DNA of 64,000 nt from Eledone cirrhosa (taxonomy: Eukaryota). Where the stretch lies: assembly GCA_964016885.1 (NCBI GenBank), contig OZ024748.1, forward strand, positions 51,894,001 to 51,958,000, written 5' to 3'. Below the pieces are notes generated by a model. The model was not told the DNA's origin. It was given only the letters and a program-made list of their open reading frames with translations, and searched no databases. Both the position numbers and the translations under genes were made by a program. Positions 1 through 55,744 of the stretch are shown here, piece after piece. Position 1 is the stretch's first letter. Each line of letters begins with the position of its first letter.

Positions 1-1846
1 ATTGCTGGCCTTGTGCCAAAAGTAGAAACAATTAATTATGAGGAGCCAATGGGTTAGTGATGTCAAAATTAGTTTATGTCAGTTTCAATGTTAATATCAG
101 CAAAAGATAACATGAGACATAAAATACGGACACATGAACAGCTTGCTTATCAGCTGTATACTGGGCATCTCCGTAGTTTCAGATGCTTTGAAAACTGAAC
201 TATTCTTCTCAGTTCACCAATAGACTTTAAGAGAGAGAGGTAGAGGGAAGAATCAAGCCAGGTAGTGGCCTGGTACAGTTTTTTATCAACCTTGAAAGGA
301 TGAAAAGCAGAGTTGATCTTGAACTCAGAGAGCAGAGACCTGGGATCAATATGCCAAACATTCCAGCAACTTTGCCAATTTACTGCCTCATGCTAACCTT
401 TATTCATTTGTATTCCCATTTGAATGGAAATATGTAGAACTAGAATTTTTTCCAACATGCTAACGCATATGTGTATATTTGTGTGCATGTGTGTATGTGC
501 ATATGCATACATTTATATGTGTGAGTATATAAATATAAAGGTGGAAACATACACATGCACAGACATACATTCACACAAACACAAATACACATACATTCAT
601 ACATAGCGTAGCAAATGAAACACCAACCGCTGTTTTGCTATAGTTTTTTTCACTATTCCTTTGCTTCCTCTTACACACACATACATTCTCATACACATGC
701 ATTGCGTGACAGACGGAAGTCACTCAAATTTATATATAGCTTAAGAATATTTCCTAGTAAACAATGGAACATTTGACTGTAGATTTGAACTCAAGAAGTA
801 CAAGCCAATAAATTCCTACTCTCCTTTATTTCCAAAGTCCATATTTGTCTTGGTTCAATACTTGCTTATGATATACTCTGTGATCTCTTCTGGATCTATA
901 TATCATATTCTCATGCTTTGATATTTATGCTATATGAGTCATAGGATACCGTCAAGTCAAATTCTCCTATAAGAAGTTATCGTGTTTAAGCATTCATTCT
1001 TGATATACATTAAGAAACCTTATTTACCCTTATATATATATATATATTTATTTATTTATTTATTAAAATAACAGATTAAAGTTTAAACAAAGAATCGCTG
1101 TTTTCACCCTTAATGTTAAGGGTGAAAGCAGCGAGTATTTGCTTAAACTTTAATCTGTTATTTTAATAAATGTTTGCTCTATGGTTCTTATATATTTGAT
1201 ATATATTTATCCTTATCGAGCCCTCTTTGGATTTTAGTTTTCACGTTTATTATTATTACTATATATATACTCTTTTACACTTTTACCTGTTCCAGCTATC
1301 CAGCTGAGGCCATGCTGGGGCACCGCTCTTGTAATATATATATTATTATTACTATATATTTATATAATTTTATTCTTTACCATTAACATTAATACAAAAA
1401 ATAATTGTTATATTTTTTAGAGAAGGGCCTCAAATTTCATATAGTTTAGGGCTTCAGCAGCTGAAAGTCTGGGCCTGCTCTTTGCAATTTCACTTCTCTA
1501 ATTCAATGAATAGAACATACTCAGCCATGTTTCTTTATACATGATAACTGCCATATTGCTCCATCCAAAATCACAGACTCTGGGATCATATGACCTAACA
1601 CCAATGGAATATTAGAATATTATATATGATATCAAAATGTTACTGTGATATCAGAATTATGAATTTTTTATATATGATATCAAGATATTTAAAAAACAAT
1701 ACTAAATGAAAAAAAAAATCAACATTAGTCTTCATCTGATATTATTTATATTTTAGATATATTTTAGATAACATAAAACATTAAAAACACCAGCAATACT
1801 TTAATGATTGATTATATTGTTTTATCTTTTCACTTTTTTTTTGTTT

Positions 1847-18819: not shown

Positions 18820-18953
18820 TATATATATATATATTTAAGAGTTAAACAAGGTTCAATGAATACATCAAAGAATGAGTTTTACAATAGATTGGATTACTAC
18901 CTTGATTGAATCTTAACCATCTACTATGTCAGGGTATGTCATGTATCATTTTA

Positions 18954-19016
18954 TTTTATCTGATGAGGTCGTACTGTTGAACTTAACTCAGTACCTCTGA
19001 AATATGTATAATAAAA
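18954..19016 (+). ncRNA. Type I hammerhead ribozyme motif (intact core)
   Basis: TTTTAT-CTGATGA-GGtcGTACTG(12 nt)CAGTACctCT-GAAA-TATGTA-TA^ATAAAA. Confidence 0.62.
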
Positions 19017-19054
19017 ATATAATTGATCACAAGAATATCTATTTTGTTAATATT

Positions 19055-36911: not shown

Positions 36912-36981
36912 TATTTTATTATGCACATTTTGAATACAAAATCATCCTGGGAAATTTTTTGTGTTCCCATCAGATAAAATA
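36912..36981 (-). ncRNA. Degenerate hammerhead (inverted partner of 37255-37324)
   Basis: Minus strand: TATTTTAT-CTGATGG-GAACACAA..TTGTATTC-AAAA-TGTGCA-TA-ATAAAATA; two core substitutions. Confidence 0.5.
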
Positions 36982-36983
36982 AC

Positions 36984-37171
36984 TGTTTCTACTTTAGGCA
37001 CAAGGCCAGCAATTACCCAGTGCATTACTGGTACCTTATTTTATCGACCCCGTAAGGATGAAAGGCAAAGTCAACCTCGGCGGGATTTGAACTCAGATCG
37101 TAAAGGGATGTAACTATACTGGAAAGCATGGCGTCCGACTTTCCACCGATACTGCCAATCCACCGTACAAT
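36984..37171 (-). mobile_element. tRNA-head SINE with Meta/MESC-like central domain, 17-bp TSD
   Basis: Minus strand: TGGCAGTATCGG A box, GAGTTCAAATCC B box, GTTGACTTTGCCTTTCATCCTTACGGGGTCGATAAAAT..GTACCAG, tail GGCCTTGTGCCTAAAGTAGAAACA. TSD CCATCAGATAAAATAAC at 36967-36983 and 37172-37188. Confidence 0.88.
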
Positions 37172-37254
37172 CCATCAGATAAAATAACGTAACATGATAT
37201 GAGGCATAATAGCACTTGTTTATAGGAAAGTGCTAAGTCTACATATTGTTACCT

Positions 37255-37324
37255 TATTTTATCTGATAAGAACACAATTTTTGTCCCAGGATGATTTTGT
37301 GTTCGAAATGCGCATAATAAAATA
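37255..37324 (+). ncRNA. Type I hammerhead motif with a G8A core change
   Basis: TATTTTAT-CTGATAA-GAACACAA(19 nt)TTGTGTTC-GAAA-TGCGCA-TA^ATAAAATA: perfect 8-bp stems I and II, palindromic stem III. Confidence 0.62.
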
Positions 37325-37427
37325 TATGGAACTCTTTTAAACATCTTTTAATTTCTTCTTTATTATATATATATATACATATATCAATGATATTAATAAA
37401 GGGAAACTATATTTATAAAACCATATT

Positions 37428-37482
37428 TATTGTATTATATACATTTCAAGGGTACCAAAACTTTGGTAGACTCTCATCAGAT
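37428..37482 (-). ncRNA. Hammerhead core, same family as 55378-55479, with stem I truncated
   Basis: Minus strand: AT-CTGATGA-GAGtcTACCAAA..TTTGGTACCCTT-GAAA-TGTATA-TA-ATAC. Downstream flank 37385-37430 matches 55352-55398. Confidence 0.5.
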
Positions 37483-45990: not shown

Positions 45991-48900
45991 AACCATCCAT
46001 ACCACCACCACTACCACCACCAAGTCCTATAACCATCCATACCACCACCACTACCACCACCAAGTCCTGTAACCATCCATACCACCACCACTACCACCAC
46101 CAAGTCCTATAACCATCCATACCACCACCACTACCACCACAAAGTCCTATAACCATCCATACCACCACCACTACCACCACCAAGTCCTATAACCATCCAT
46201 ACCACCACCACTACCACCACAAAGTCCTGTAACCATCCATACCACCACCACTACCACCACCAAGTCCTATAACCATCCATACCACCACCACTACCACCAC
46301 AAAGTCCTATAACCATCCATACCACCACCACTACCACCACAAAGTCCTGTAACCATCCATACCACCACCACTACCACCACCAAGTCCTATAACCATCCAT
46401 ACCACCACCACTACCACCACCAAGTCCTATAACCATCCATACCACCACCACTACCACCACAAAGTCCTGTAACCATCCATACCACCACCACTACCACCAC
46501 CAAGTCCTATAACCATCCATACCACCACCACTACCACCACCAAGTCCTATAACCATCCATACCACCACCACTACCACCACCAAGTCCTATAACCATCCAT
46601 ACCACCACCACTACCACCACCAAGTCCTATAACCATCCATACCACCACCACTACCACCACCAAGTCCTATAACCATCCATACCACCACCACTACCACCAC
46701 AAAGTCCTGTAACCATCCATACCACCACCACTACCACCACCAAGTCCTATAACCATCCATACCACCACCACTACCACCACCAAGTCCTGTAACCATCCAT
46801 ACCACCACCACTACCACCACAAAGTCCTGTAACCATCCATAACACCACCACTACCACCACCAAGTCCTATAACCATCCATACCACCACCACTACCACCAC
46901 CAAGTCCTATAACCATCCATACCACCACCACTACCACCACAAAGTCCTGTAACCATCCATACCACCACCACTACCACCACCAAGTCCTATAACCATCCAT
47001 ACCACCACCACTACCACCACCAAGTCCTATAACCATCCATACCACCACCACTACCACCACAAAGTCCTGTAACCATCCATACCACCACCACTACCACCAC
47101 CAAGTCCTATAACCATCCATACCACCACCACTACCACCACCAAGTCCTATAACCATCCATACCACCACCACTACCACCACCAAGTCCTATAACCATCCAT
47201 ACCACCACCACTACCACCACCAAGTCCTATAACCATCCATACCACCACCACTACCACCACAAAGTCCTGTAACCATCCATACCACCACCACTACCACCAC
47301 CAAGTCCTATAACCATCCATACCACCACCACTACCACCACCAAGTCCTGTAACCATCCATACCACCACCACTACCACCACAAAGTCCTGTAACCATCCAT
47401 AACACCACCACTACCACCACCAAGTCCTATAACCATCCATACCACCACCACTACCACCACCAAGTCCTATAACCATCCATACCACCACCACTACCACCAC
47501 AAAGTCCTGTAACCATCCATACCACCACCACTACCACCACCAAGTCCTATAACCATCCATACCACCACCACTACCACCACCAAGTCCTGTAACCATCCAT
47601 ACCACCACCACTACCACCACAAAGTCCTGTAACCATCCATACCACCACCACTACCACCACCAAGTCCTATAACCATCCATACCACCACCACTACCACCAC
47701 CAAGTCCTATAACCATCCATACCACCACCACTACCACCACAAAGTCCTGTAACCATCCATACCACCACCACTACCACCACCAAGTCCTATAACCATCCAT
47801 ACCACCACCACTACCACCACCAAGTCCTATAACCATCCATACCACCACCACTACCACCACCAAGTCCTATAACCATCCATACCACCACCACTACCACCAC
47901 CAAGTCCTATAACCATCCATACCACCACCACTACCACCACCAAGTCCTATAACCATCCATACCACCACCACTACCACCACAAAGTCCTGTAACCATCCAT
48001 ACCACCACCACTACCACCACCAAGTCCTATAACCATCCATACCACCACCACTACCACCACCAAGTCCTGTAACCATCCATACCACCACCACTACCACCAC
48101 AAAGTCCTGTAACCATCCATAACACCACCACTACCACCACCAAGTCCTATAACCATCCATACCACCACCACTACCACCACCAAGTCCTATAACCATCCAT
48201 ACCACCACCACTACCACCACAAAGTCCTGTAACCATCCATACCACCACCACTACCACCACAAAGTCCTGTAACCATCCATACCACCACCACTACCACCAC
48301 AAAGTCCTATAACCATCCATACCACCACCACTACCACCACCAAGTCCTATAACCATCCATACCACCACCACTACCACCACAAAGTCCTATAACCATCCAT
48401 ACCACCACCACTACCACCACCAAGTCCTATAACCATCCATACCACCACCACTACCACCACCAAGTCCTATAACCATCCATACCACCACCACTACCACCAC
48501 AAAGTCCTGTAACCATCCATACCACCACCACTACCACCACCAAGTCCTATAACCATCCATACCACCACCACTACCACCACCAAGTCCTGTAACCATCCAT
48601 ACCACCACCACTACCACCACCAAGAACTATAACCATCCATACCACCACCACTACCACCACCAAGTCCTATAACCATCCATACCACCACCACTACCACCAC
48701 CAAGTCCTATAACCATCCATACCACCACCACTACCACCACAAAGTCCTGTAACCATCCATACCACCACCACTACCACCACCAAGAACTATAACCATCCAT
48801 ACCACCACCACTACCACCACCAAGTCCTATAACCATCCATACCACCACCACTACCACCACCAAGTCCTATAACCATCCATACCACCACCACTACCACCAC

Positions 48901-51900
48901 AAAGTCCTGTAACCATCCATACCACCACCACTACCACCACCAAGAACTATAACCATCCATACCACCACCACTACCACCACCAAGTCCTATAACCATCCAT
49001 ACCACCACCACTACCACCACAAAGTCCTGTAACCATCCATACCACCACCACTACCACCACCAAGAACTATAACCATCCATACCACCACCACTACCACCAC
49101 CAAGAACTATAACCATCCATACCACCACCACTACCACCACCAAGTCCTATAACCATCCATACCACCACCACTACCACCACCAAGTCCTATAACCATCCAT
49201 ACCACCACCACTACCACCACCAAGTCCTATAACCATCCATACCACCACCACTACCACCACCAAGTCCTATAACCATCCATACCACCACCACTACCACCAC
49301 CAAGTCCTATAACCATCCATACCACCACCACTACCACCACCAAGTCCTATAACCATCCATACCACCACCCATACCACCACCAAGTCCTATAACCATCCAT
49401 ACCACCACCACTACCACCACCAAGTCCTATAACCATCCATACCACCACCACTACCACCACCAAGTCCTGTAACCATCCATACCACCACCACTACCACCAC
49501 CAAGTCCTATAACCATCCATACCACCACCACTACCACCACAAAGTCCTGTAACCATCCATACCACCACCACTACCACCACCAAGTCCTATAACCATCCAT
49601 ACCACCACCACTACCACCACCAAGTCCTATAACCATCCATACCACCACCACTACCACCACCAAGTCCTATAACCATCCATACCACCACCACTACCACCAC
49701 CAAGTCCTATAACCATCCATACCACCACCACTACCACCACCAAGTCCTATAACCATCCATACCACCACCACTACCACCACCAAGTCCTATAACCATCCAT
49801 AACACCACCACTACCACCACCAAGTCCTATAACCATCCATACCACCACCACTACCACCACCAAGTCCTATAACCATCCATACCACCACCACTACCACCAC
49901 AAAGTCCTGTAACCATCCATACCACCACCACTACCACCACAAAGTCCTATAACCATCCATACCACCACCACTACCACCACCAAGTCCTATAACCATCCAT
50001 ACCACCACCCATACCACCACCAAGTCCTATAACCATCCATACCACCACCACTACCACCACAAAGTCCTATAACCATCCATACCACCACCACTACCACCAC
50101 CAAGTCCTATAACCATCCATACCACCACCACTACCACCACCAAGTCCTATAACCATCCATACCACCACCACTACCACCACCAAGTCCTATAACCATCCAT
50201 AACACCACCACTACCACCACCAAGTCCTATAACCATCCATACCACCACCACTACCACCACAAAGTCCTGTAACCATCCATACCACCACCACTACCACCAC
50301 CACCAAGTCCTATAACCATCCATACCACCACCACTACCACCACAAAGTCCTATAACCATCCATACCACCACCACTACCACCACAAAGTCCTATAACCATC
50401 CATACCACCACCACTACCACCACCAAGTCCTATAACCATCCATACCACCACCCATACCACCACCAAGTCCTATAACCATCCATACCACCACCACTACCAC
50501 CACAAAGTCCTATAACCATCCATACCACCACCACTACCACCACCAAGTCCTATAACCATCCATAACACCACCACTACCACCACCAAGTCCTATAACCATC
50601 CATACCACCACCCATACCACCACCAAGTCCTATAACCATCCATACCACCACCACTACCACCACCAAGTCCTATAACCATCCATACCACCACCACTACCAC
50701 CACCAAGTCCTATAACCATCCATAACACCACCACTACCACCACCAAGTCCTATAACCATCCATACCACCACCACTACCACCACCAAGTCCTATAACCATC
50801 CATACCACCACCACTACCACCACAAAGTCCTGTAACCATCCATAACACCACCACTACCACCACAAAGTCCTGTAACCATCCATACCACCACCACTACCAC
50901 CACAAAGTCCTGTAACCATCCATACCACCACCACTACCACCACAAAGTCCTATAACCATCCATACCACCACCACTACCACCACCAAGTCCTATAACCATC
51001 CATACCACCACCACTACCACCACCAAGTCCTATAACCATCCATACCACCACCACTACCACCACAAAGTCCTGTAACCATCCATACCACCACCACTACCAC
51101 CACCAAGTCCTATAACCATCCATACCACCACCACTACCACCACCAAGTCCTGTAACCATCCATACCACCACCACTACCACCACCAAGAACTATAACCATC
51201 CATACCACCACCACTACCACCACCAAGTCCTATAACCATCCATACCACCACCACTACCACCACCAAGTCCTATAACCATCCATACCACCACCACTACCAC
51301 CACAAAGTCCTGTAACCATCCATACCACCACCACTACCACCACCAAGAACTATAACCATCCATACCACCACCACTACCACCACCAAGTCCTATAACCATC
51401 CATACCACCACCACTACCACCACCAAGTCCTATAACCATCCATACCACCACCACTACCACCACAAAGTCCTGTAACCATCCATACCACCACCACTACCAC
51501 CACCAAGAACTATAACCATCCATACCACCACCACTACCACCACCAAGTCCTATAACCATCCATACCACCACCACTACCACCACAAAGTCCTGTAACCATC
51601 CATACCACCACCACTACCACCACCAAGAACTATAACCATCCATACCACCACCACTACCACCACCAAGAACTATAACCATCCATACCACCACCACTACCAC
51701 CACCAAGTCCTATAACCATCCATACCACCACCACTACCACCACCAAGTCCTATAACCATCCATACCACCACCACTACCACCACCAAGTCCTATAACCATC
51801 CATACCACCACCACTACCACCACCAAGTCCTATAACCATCCATACCACCACCACTACCACCACCAAGTCCTATAACCATCCATACCACCACCACTACCAC

Positions 51901-53310
51901 CACCAAGTCCTATAACCATCCATACCACCACCCATACCACCACCAAGTCCTATAACCATCCATACCACCACCACTACCACCACCAAGTCCTATAACCATC
52001 CATACCACCACCACTACCACCACCAAGTCCTGTAACCATCCATACCACCACCACTACCACCACCAAGTCCTATAACCATCCATACCACCACCACTACCAC
52101 CACAAAGTCCTGTAACCATCCATACCACCACCACTACCACCACCAAGTCCTATAACCATCCATACCACCACCACTACCACCACCAAGTCCTATAACCATC
52201 CATACCACCACCACTACCACCACCAAGTCCTATAACCATCCATACCACCACCACTACCACCACCAAGTCCTATAACCATCCATACCACCACCACTACCAC
52301 CACCAAGTCCTATAACCATCCATACCACCACCACTACCACCACCAAGTCCTATAACCATCCATAACACCACCACTACCACCACCAAGTCCTATAACCATC
52401 CATACCACCACCACTACCACCACCAAGTCCTATAACCATCCATACCACCACCACTACCACCACAAAGTCCTGTAACCATCCATACCACCACCACTACCAC
52501 CACAAAGTCCTATAACCATCCATACCACCACCACTACCACCACCAAGTCCTATAACCATCCATACCACCACCCATACCACCACCAAGTCCTATAACCATC
52601 CATACCACCACCACTACCACCACAAAGTCCTATAACCATCCATACCACCACCACTACCACCACCAAGTCCTATAACCATCCATACCACCACCACTACCAC
52701 CACCAAGTCCTATAACCATCCATACCACCACCACTACCACCACCAAGTCCTATAACCATCCATAACACCACCACTACCACCACCAAGTCCTATAACCATC
52801 CATACCACCACCACTACCACCACAAAGTCCTGTAACCATCCATACCACCACCACTACCACCACCACCAAGTCCTATAACCATCCATACCACCACCACTAC
52901 CACCACAAAGTCCTATAACCATCCATACCACCACCACTACCACCACAAAGTCCTATAACCATCCATACCACCACCACTACCACCACCAAGTCCTATAACC
53001 ATCCATACCACCACCCATACCACCACCAAGTCCTATAACCATCCATACCACCACCACTACCACCACAAAGTCCTATAACCATCCATACCACCACCACTAC
53101 CACCACCAAGTCCTATAACCATCCATACCACCACCACTACCACCACCAAGTCCTATAACCACCCAGACCACTACCACTACCACCACCAAGTCCTATAACC
53201 ATCCATACCACCACCCATACCACCACCAAGTCCTATAACCATCCATAACACCACCACTACCAACACCAAGTCCTATAACCATCCATACCACCACCACTAC
53301 CACCACAACC
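45991..53310. repeat. 40-bp tandem satellite AACCATCCATACCACCACCACTACCACCAC(C/A)AAGTCCT(A/G)T, roughly 180 units
   Basis: Exact 40-nt period with two 43-nt units (~50301, ~52864). Confidence 0.97.
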
Positions 53311-54150
53311 ACTACCACCATCAAGACCTCTAACCATCGACACCACCACATCTCACACCATTGACCATCAATACTACTACTGCGCATCCAAATACTACAG
53401 CTAGTGATATTACCACTAAGAAAACCTCCCCATCCAACCACAACCACCACCACCACCACCACCACTGCTACCAACACAACCACTGCTACCAACACAACCA
53501 CCACCACCGCCACTGCTACCAACACAACCACCACCAACACAACCACCACCACCACCACTGCTACCAACACAACCACCACCACCACAACCACTGCTACCAA
53601 CACAACCACCACCACCGCCACTGCTACCAACACAACCACCACCAACACAACCACCACCACAACCACTGCTACCAACACAACCACCACCACCACAACCACT
53701 GCTACCAACACAACCACCACCACCACAACCACTGCTACCAACACAACCACCACCACCACCACTGCTACCAACACAACCACCACTGCTACCAACACAACCA
53801 CCACCACCAACACAACCACCACCACCACAACAACCACCACAACCACCACCACAACAACAACCATCATGTCGCAGTCCAATCGGAAACTTAATAGAATAAT
53901 TAGTAAAACAATAAAGATGCACTAGACACACACATACATAATATATATATGTATATATATATATATATGTGTATATATTTATATATGTATATATACACAC
54001 ATACACATATTTTAATATATATATATGCGTGTGTGTGCGTGTGAAAAAGAATGATATTGAATCTGTCTCTCAATACTGAAATCAATTGTAATGTTTAAGA
54101 GAGGGAGAAGGTGGGGGAAATATTCCATTTAAATTGGTTCAACTTAACTT

Positions 54151-55303: not shown

Positions 55304-55356
<53 letters not shown>

Positions 55357-55377
55357 ATATTAAATAAATGGAAACTA

Positions 55378-55479
55378 TATTTATAAAACCATATTTATTT
55401 TATTATATATATTTCAAGGGTACCAAGACAACATTGGTACGCTTTCATCAGATAAAATACAAAGTTTGTTTTATAAATA
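55378..55479 (-). ncRNA. Type I hammerhead ribozyme motif (intact core) in a PLE-like terminus (~55350-55740)
   Basis: Minus strand: TATTTTAT-CTGATGA-AAGcGTACCAA(tgttgtc)TTGGTACcCTT-GAAA-TATATA-TA^ATAAAATA. Stem I is extended by a further 12-bp helix TATTTATAAAAC/GTTTTATAAATA. Confidence 0.75.
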
Positions 55480-55744
55480 GAGACATACCCATGAAAATCA
55501 TACCTTATCGGTTGGATATTCTCTGGATAGTGGAAATATATTAGGGATTTTTCAAACTTATGGGTGAATATGCAAATGAATATGTAAATAATTGAAAAAC
55601 AACATTTATTTAAACGACTATGGAGAGAGAGAGAAGAGATGAGGAGAAGGATAAAATAGTGCGAGAGAGAGAAGAAAGAAACAAGAGAAGATGAATAAAA
55701 ACTCATATCCAACAAATTAAATACCCTTCTACTTATATAGATAT

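What the first reader, a model, noticed from the sequence alone, without database searches (positions are those of the whole stretch)
55378..55479. Best-preserved hammerhead: extended stem I, with AATAAA straddling the cleavage site
Seen (minus strand): intact CUGAUGA/GAAA, 10-bp stem II with one mismatch, palindromic stem III ATATATAT, 8-bp stem I, an 8x6 internal loop and a further 12-bp helix. That geometry could allow loop I-loop II tertiary contacts. In this copy and those at 18954, 37255 and 36912, the cleaved A plus the stem I 3' arm spell A^ATAAA, so the poly(A) hexamer is both paired in stem I and cut by cleavage, although stems II and III differ between families. Inference: a possible switch between polyadenylation and self-cleavage/circularisation in these elements.
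Basis: partly seen in the sequence, partly recalled or inferred. Interest (0 to 1): 0.72.

Follow-up and report, generated by a model that had tools for sequence, protein, structure and literature searches.

The report
Penelope-element hammerhead beside a poly(A) hexamer
This predicted self-cutting RNA motif is one of tens of thousands of copies from the end repeat of a known kind of jumping gene (a Hydra-clade Penelope-like element); the AATAAA word lying exactly across the cut site is lost in three quarters of its relatives, but such a word is usually kept just after the cut, where it may serve as the element's poly(A) signal.

Summary
The fold is there as described. It is the hammerhead in the pseudo-LTR of a high-copy Hydra-clade Penelope-like element (RT plus C-terminal GIY-YIG-type endonuclease, 3,434-nt monomer). 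The window holds an ordinary 5'-truncated end piece with an inverted tail, inserted in (TA)n.

The straddling idea fails. Of 46,956 genomic matches in this group, only 24% keep A^ATAAA; the rest carry G-U-compatible changes. The four window copies share one inherited stem I, and two look like arms of one insertion.

Part of the observation survives. A second AATAAA at +5 is kept in 90%, at least one of the two in 96%. Eleven of 18 sampled hammerhead families have A(A/T)TAAA at 0 to +12 (background 2.3%). This suggests a poly(A) signal just 3' of the cut, used before cleavage rather than as a switch. No RNA data were available, and only 3 of 25 published Hydra-clade hammerheads show it.

The distal helix is limited to this group; loop-loop docking is unsupported. 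The scan has reported Penelope hammerheads in this genome before, on other DNA.

The parts
55352..55708 (-). 5'-truncated pseudo-LTR (end of 3' UTR, hammerhead, first tail end at +52) of a Hydra-clade Penelope-like element
   Evidence: 92% identical over about 370 nt to both pLTRs of full-length copy L187; end at +52 is one of two preferred ends
55709..55735 (+). Inverted 27-nt piece that ends at the second tail end (about +147); the left arm of the insertion
55306..55351 (.). (TA)n target tract at the 3' end; a short TA run also lies at 55736-55744
55468..55479 (-). Distal helix, 5' arm (pairs with 55389-55378)
   Evidence: pair probabilities 0.65-1.0; z -3.3 against shuffled flanks
55452..55459 (-). 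Stem I, 5' arm
   Evidence: pair probabilities only 0.32-0.38
55445..55451 (-). Catalytic core CUGAUGA
55416..55444 (-). Stem II (10 pairs, one C-C mismatch, 7-nt loop; 10.1-11.1 pair is A-U)
55405..55415 (-). GAAA and palindromic stem III (ATATATAT), predicted dimer interface
   Evidence: monomer stem III probability 0.001; palindrome duplex -3.2 kcal/mol
55399..55404 (-). AATAAA straddling the predicted cut (after A55404); dispensable in this group
   Evidence: kept in 11,198 of 46,956 matches
55394..55399 (-). Second AATAAA at +5 to +10; the better conserved hexamer and candidate poly(A) signal
   Evidence: kept in 42,135 of 46,956 matches
55378..55403 (-). Stem I 3' arm, 6-nt loop strand and distal helix 3' arm
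18952..19018 (+). Hammerhead of a related family (same stem I type, intact core, straddling hexamer only)
37255..37324 (+). Hammerhead of the TGCGCAT family, core damaged; right arm of a diverging pair
36912..36983 (-). Hammerhead of the TGCGCAT family, core damaged; left arm of the same pair
37376..37482 (-). Fifth copy, same group as the finding, lacking the 5' arm of stem I; straddling hexamer lost, +5 hexamer kept

Best explanation
This is the type-I hammerhead motif in the pseudo-LTR of a high-copy Hydra-clade Penelope-like retrotransposon, here in a truncated copy inserted in (TA)n; it likely cuts only weakly or as a dimer, and the AATAAA just 3' of the cut is likely the element's poly(A) signal, the exact overlap with the cut being incidental. 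Shown: the anatomy (cut site, tail ends at +52 and about +147, ATG at +200, RT-endonuclease ORF, long 3' UTR, second pLTR), the copy numbers and the hexamer counts. Inferred: a transcript from a tandem or full-length copy is polyadenylated about 20-35 nt past the cut in the 3' pLTR, so that it still holds the whole hammerhead and is translated. The two hammerheads would then pair through their palindromic stems III and cut, removing the poly(A) tail and releasing a unit-length RNA that may be ligated to a circle. The RT would start at the two tail sites on opposite target strands in (TA)n, giving the two-armed insertions. The steps would be sequential, not alternative. The window copy has no ORF and is a passenger.
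For: Identity: upstream DNA of sister copies translates to the endonuclease end; long frames carry RT motifs; the hammerhead lies 200 nt before the ATG and recurs 3,434 nt later in L187; protein motifs match the Hydra clade description. Ends: 117 of 124 copies that do not run on to the ATG end at +46-62 or +139-160, like the two RT start sites of PMC11167929. Hexamer: at least one kept in 45,237 of 46,956 matches; neither in 1,719, against 3,671 expected under independence (arithmetic mine). The family with no +5 hexamer has A-to-G changes at three tested positions in only 164 of 23,567 matches. A(A/T)TAAA starts at 0 to +12 in 11 of 18 families, the reverse-complement word in 0 of 18, background 2.3%. 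AATAAA is the most widely shared 6-mer after the cut (11 of 27 clusters; 0 in the 40 nt upstream). It is kept when insertions move it to +14 or +21. Dimer: with PMC4209133.
Against: No RNA evidence at all. No copy of 147 ends in a poly(A) run. Copies extend past the predicted poly(A) site, and 128 of 131 run intact through the cut, so templates were uncut read-through RNA or re-ligated circles; the data do not separate these. About half of the first 100 listed AATAGA matches lack both hexamers, some in both arms of an insertion, so such templates were copied. The hexamer-bearing families are probably related, so the counts reflect few events. Only 3 of 25 published Hydra-clade hammerheads have a strict hexamer at 0 to +12 (read by eye). 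In the anole PLE, cleavage was not needed for insertion in vitro and no RNA-seq reads began or ended at the cut. The own 3' pLTR was the nearest match of the 5' pLTR in only 4 of 14 full-length copies.
Confidence: 0.55

Rival explanations
1. Same element, but the hexamer is not a poly(A) signal. It is an A-rich word inherited by one PLE lineage, or a binding site for the element's own protein, and templates are simply uncut read-through RNAs.
For: No poly(A)-ended copy in 147; 128 of 131 copies run through the cut; double-loss templates were copied; 3 of 25 published Hydra hammerheads have the word; uncut RNA is the dominant substrate in the anole PLE.
Against: The word persists across five unrelated stem I sequences while its flanks diverge, including families whose nearby ORF pieces are only 37-56% identical to this one. 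Expanded subfamilies lose one hexamer or the other, seldom both.
Confidence: 0.3
2. One reading: the hexamer must overlap the cut and be paired in stem I, so that folding and cleavage directly compete with polyadenylation.
For: The overlap is real in five related families, and 23,403 of 23,567 matches of one family keep it against A-to-G change. In this copy part of the +5 hexamer is also paired in stem I.
Against: 76% of the nearest relatives lack the overlap. In other families the hexamer lies outside stem I, at +5 to +21. Stem I is only about 35% formed in the ensemble.
Confidence: 0.07
3. A fast monomeric hammerhead in which the extended stem I docks on loop II, as in canonical natural hammerheads.
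For: The 12-bp distal helix is stable. A 2-bp stem III with a tetraloop is described for invertebrate and axolotl hammerheads (PMC7229834).
Against: Stem III here is two A-U pairs, probability 0.001. Stem II is 11 positions long and varies in length and loop between subfamilies. The distal helix is absent in the related families and the internal loop closes up in the ATGAAA subfamilies.
Confidence: 0.08

Closest known systems
Hydra clade of Penelope-like elements (Craig et al. 2021, PMC8557442)
   Same: Single ORF with RT and C-terminal endonuclease, DKT, CxCX5C linker, CxxC and CxH motifs, (TA)n target, hammerhead in the pLTR, tandem and inverted ends
   Different: Monomer 3,434 nt with a 3' UTR over 1 kb (theirs generally under 3 kb); RWR or RWC where they give RWK; longer stems I and II; hexamer next to the cut in most lineages here, in 3 of 25 of their listed hammerheads
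[quoted passage not shown]
   Same: Type I, short palindromic helix III, long helix II, thousands of dispersed single copies from truncated elements, opposite-strand pairs
   Different: Helix I is 8 bp plus a 12-bp distal helix (theirs 4-5 bp); A-U at 10.1-11.1 and no bulged base after position 9
Anole Poseidon PLE with two internal RT start sites (Frangieh et al. 2024, PMC11167929)
   Same: Two preferred ends downstream of the hammerhead, AT-rich target, copies that run through the uncut site
   Different: Starts lie in the 5' UTR, about 95 nt apart, not inside the ORF; different clade
Mammalian Clec2 3' UTR hammerhead (as summarised in the review PMC6765202)
   Same: Cut lies 5' of a poly(A) signal, so cleavage would remove the tail
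   Different: Clec2 is a discontinuous ribozyme in a host gene with tested activity; here the signal is 0-21 nt from the cut in a retroelement and untested

Membership tests
Type-I hammerhead ribozyme | Core CUGANGA and GAAA, NUH cut site, three helices, helix I open | tested here: met
   triplet AUA
Type-I hammerhead ribozyme | Match to an Rfam hammerhead model | tested here: not met
   no hammerhead among 7 matches at E<=10
Type-I hammerhead ribozyme | Self-cleavage | not testable with these tools
   no RNA run listed
Canonical tertiary-stabilised hammerhead | Short helix II and conserved loop 1-loop 2 contacts | tested here: not met
   helix II has 11 positions; loop II and helix II length vary between subfamilies; distal helix not general
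Penelope-like element (EN+) | One ORF with RT and C-terminal GIY-YIG-type endonuclease | tested here: met
   motifs read in translations and matched by eye to the Hydra alignment; Pfam and PDB gave no hit
Penelope-like element (EN+) | pLTRs from partial tandems, inverted 5' piece, optional tail | tested here: met
Hydra clade | DKT motif, divergent RT4(B), CxCX5C linker, CxxC and CxH at the C-terminus | tested here: met
Hydra clade | N-terminal RWK motif | tested here: inconclusive
   RWR in L187, RWC in L057
Hydra clade | (TA)n insertion and hammerhead in the pLTR | tested here: met
Hydra clade | Placement in the RT tree | not tested
   the published proteins were only compared by eye
Non-LTR retrozyme | Short non-coding tandem unit | tested here: not met
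   the monomer is 3,434 nt and coding
Functional poly(A) signal | Hexamer with an upstream UGUA, a CA site 10-30 nt downstream and a U-rich stretch | tested here: inconclusive
   these words are present in this copy, but the sequence is AT-rich and no control was run for them
Functional poly(A) signal | Poly(A) added downstream in RNA | not testable with these tools
   0 of 147 DNA copies end in a poly(A) run

The most novel reading that the evidence does not exclude
In this PLE lineage the hammerhead and a poly(A) signal form one module. Polyadenylation ends the mRNA just past the ribozyme; dimer cleavage then strips the tail and closes a unit-length circle. The circle would be the only template on which RT start sites lying downstream of the poly(A) site can yield full-length copies. 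That would give PLE hammerheads the role that is still open.
Probability: 0.2. Interest if true: 0.72.

Novelty: new member of a known kind. Interest (0 to 1): 0.36.

Why it matters
What hammerheads do in endonuclease-bearing Penelope-like elements is stated to be unclear (PMC8557442). A poly(A) signal held within about 20 nt of the cut, upstream of both RT start sites, would force a choice between leaky read-through and a circular template, and 3'-end sequencing plus divergent RT-PCR can decide it. Without that, this is one ordinary copy among roughly 200,000 hammerhead motifs in the genome (58 in 800 kb, tandem arrays included, scaled up).

Tried and rejected
Rfam found no hammerhead, only microsatellite-driven miRNA matches and weak chance hits. 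Pfam and PDB sequence searches of the ORF gave nothing. No RNA holder was listed, so no reads were laid. A first guess of Nematis or Neptune clade was dropped once the Hydra motifs matched. Apparent different 5' and 3' hammerheads in L058 and L068 turned out to be neighbouring insertions. The idea that full-length copies begin at the cut was rejected: 5' ends are scattered. A 5' UTR intron around the hammerhead was considered (donor-like GGTAWGW upstream in 84 of 106 copies of this group, 0 of 11 in the TGCGCAT family); one exact pattern covering four donor-acceptor joins found no spliced genomic copy, which does not exclude splicing because PLEs retain introns. One paper on dimer cleavage of PLE hammerheads (PMC5785218) was not held and is not used. 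Seven literature searches listed no paper linking AATAAA to PLE hammerhead cut sites; subscription journals, and the supplements of PMC4209133 and PMC11167929, which I did not open, may bear on this.

Full report
Observation. The motif lies on the minus strand as described. Distal helix 55479-55468 with 55389-55378; 8x6 loop; stem I 55459-55452 with 55403-55396; core 55451-55445; stem II with 10 pairs and a C-C mismatch; GAAA; palindrome ATATATAT; predicted cut after A55404. The fold beats 199 of 200 shuffles. Stem II and the distal helix are well formed, stem I only about 35%, and the monomer stem III almost never (0.001); two palindromes pair at -3.2 kcal/mol. Rfam does not recognise it.

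What it is. A DNA search of the own genome gave 2,150 candidates; 40 were scored, the best at 97-99% identity. Sister copies extend upstream into the end of an endonuclease domain, whose search gave 64,584 candidates, 150 scored. Long frames carry RT motifs. In copies with the ORF start the order is hammerhead, tail end at +52, tail end near +147, ATG at +200. L187 holds two pLTRs 3,434 nt apart. All 20 full-length loci examined have a stop before codon 300. The protein has DKT, a CxCX5C linker and terminal CxxC and CxH motifs, and matches the published Hydra-clade alignment by eye (PMC8557442: passages, section 11 and four supplement look-ups read). The window copy is 357 nt of pLTR ending at +52 in (TA)n, with a 27-nt inverted piece of the second tail at its 5' end.

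Ends. Among 147 copies anchored on the 3' arm, 66 end at +46-62, 51 at +139-160, 23 run on to the ATG and 7 end elsewhere; none has a poly(A) run. Most of these loci were picked by similarity to the query; the 22 from the evenly spaced sample split 10, 10 and 2. Of 131 copies anchored 5' of the core, 128 run intact through the cut. This matches the two internal RT start sites and the uncut template reported for the anole PLE (PMC11167929, parts 1-2 of 4 read). In 14 full-length copies the two pLTRs differ by 4.2% within a copy and 7.6% between copies, but the own partner ranks first in only 4 of 14, partly because two partners are short. This fits one template per insertion without proving a circle.

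Testing the overlap. Four exact genome-wide patterns split this group (subtraction mine): both hexamers 8,096; only +5 34,039; only straddling 3,102; neither 1,719; total 46,956. The straddling hexamer is therefore missing in 76%, through A-to-G changes that keep stem I by G-U pairs; only A or G was allowed at those two positions. The four window copies share one stem I, and two are a diverging pair of one family. In other families the hexamer starts at +4, +5, +6, +7, +9, +14 or +21. The overlap is a by-product of one stem I.

What survives. At least one hexamer is kept in 96%. The +5 hexamer is lost in 28% of matches that keep the straddling one and in 4.8% of those that lack it. The TGCGCAT family, which has no +5 hexamer, shows A-to-G changes at three tested positions in 164 of 23,567 matches. 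In 1.48 Mb of loci, 19 clusters were found and one low-complexity false positive dropped; 11 of 18 have A(A/T)TAAA starting at 0 to +12, none has the reverse-complement word, and background is 2.3% per window. Merging evident relatives by hand leaves 5 of 11 lineages, and these five may share an ancestor. In the larger set AATAAA is the most shared 6-mer after the cut (11 of 27 clusters; 0 upstream), and 9 of 10 clusters with the downstream ACTCY-GAGT motif have the hexamer against 6 of 17 without it. The tandem, retrozyme-like families lack it. In the GCAGT-stem lineage 54 of the first 100 listed matches show it at +6 or +7 (counted by hand); the displaced subfamilies that I opened keep it at +14 or +21, except one arm with a point change.

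Against. Of the first 100 listed AATAGA matches, 53 lack both hexamers (by hand). The opened ones sit on four different stem II backgrounds, two of them in both arms of an insertion, so such templates were copied. In the published table of 25 Hydra-clade hammerheads only 3 have a strict hexamer at 0 to +12 (by eye). Copy counts reflect few lineage events. No RNA run was listed.

Tertiary contacts. The distal helix beats shuffled flanks in the main subfamily (z -3.3) and most sister subfamilies, but not in the 18954-type (z 0.3) or 37255-type (z 2.1) families; in ATGAAA subfamilies the internal loop closes into a longer helix. Loop II and stem II length vary freely. I find no support for loop-loop docking. 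The helix may simply help hold a weak all-A-U stem I together (inference).

Mechanism. Most likely the hammerhead cuts slowly, as a dimer or with protein help, as reported for metazoan PLE motifs (PMC4209133, parts 1-2 of 4 read). The hexamer is more likely than not the pLTR poly(A) signal. Addition 15-30 nt after it (standard spacing, recalled) would end the RNA just past the extended stem I and before both RT start sites. Cleavage would then remove the tail, as described for Clec2 (review PMC6765202, passages read). Full-length copies must then come from read-through RNA or from a ligated circle, which PMC4209133 already proposed. All RNA-level steps are inferred.

Novelty. PLE hammerheads, palindromic stem III, inverted arms and (TA)n targeting are known. 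Seven searches listed no paper on a poly(A) hexamer at the cut; PMC2377424 has no occurrence of AATAAA or polyadenylation (passages). PMC7229834 was read in passages and the 2026 retrozyme preprint in part 1 of 5. Earlier notes of this scan reported the same kind of element in this genome, one with AATAAA after several motifs. Verdict: new member of a known kind, with one testable and apparently unreported regularity; interest 0.36.

Noticed in passing
window 55501-55496 and 55486-55481 (minus strand); L187 pLTR: Two splice-donor-like sites 30-50 nt upstream of the core, kept in 84 of 106 copies of this group and in three related families, with acceptor-like sites near +66 and +157. A 5' UTR intron here would contain the whole hammerhead and both hexamers.
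   Followed up: partly
L208, L209, L211, L215: The same A-to-G change in the +5 hexamer recurs on four subfamily backgrounds, in two cases in both arms of an insertion; it could be RNA editing of the template or small sub-lineages.
   Followed up: partly
L156:281-3381 (-); L162:6638-7694 (+); L147:5268-6069: Tandem hammerhead units of about 310, 528 and 467 bp that look like non-coding retrozymes; none has the hexamer after the cut.
   Followed up: no
L064, L063, L148, L167, L220, L226 downstream of the cut: An ACTCY...GAGT motif lies between the two tail ends in many families and may mark the RT start sites.
   Followed up: partly
L187, both pLTRs: The two pLTRs differ at 1 of 180 positions and share variants rare or absent in the other 19 loci, which points to both being copied from one pLTR.
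   Followed up: partly
window 36995-37190: A short repeat that looks like a SINE fragment (label from recall) and a cut-off 5' half of a hammerhead lie between the two diverging TGCGCAT-family copies.
   Followed up: no
window 46001-54000: About 8 kb with GC near 0.49 and extreme strand skew (GC skew about -0.87), probably a simple tandem repeat.
   Followed up: no
window 1073-1156: A near-perfect 84-nt inverted repeat; related sequence recurs next to several fetched loci.
   Followed up: no
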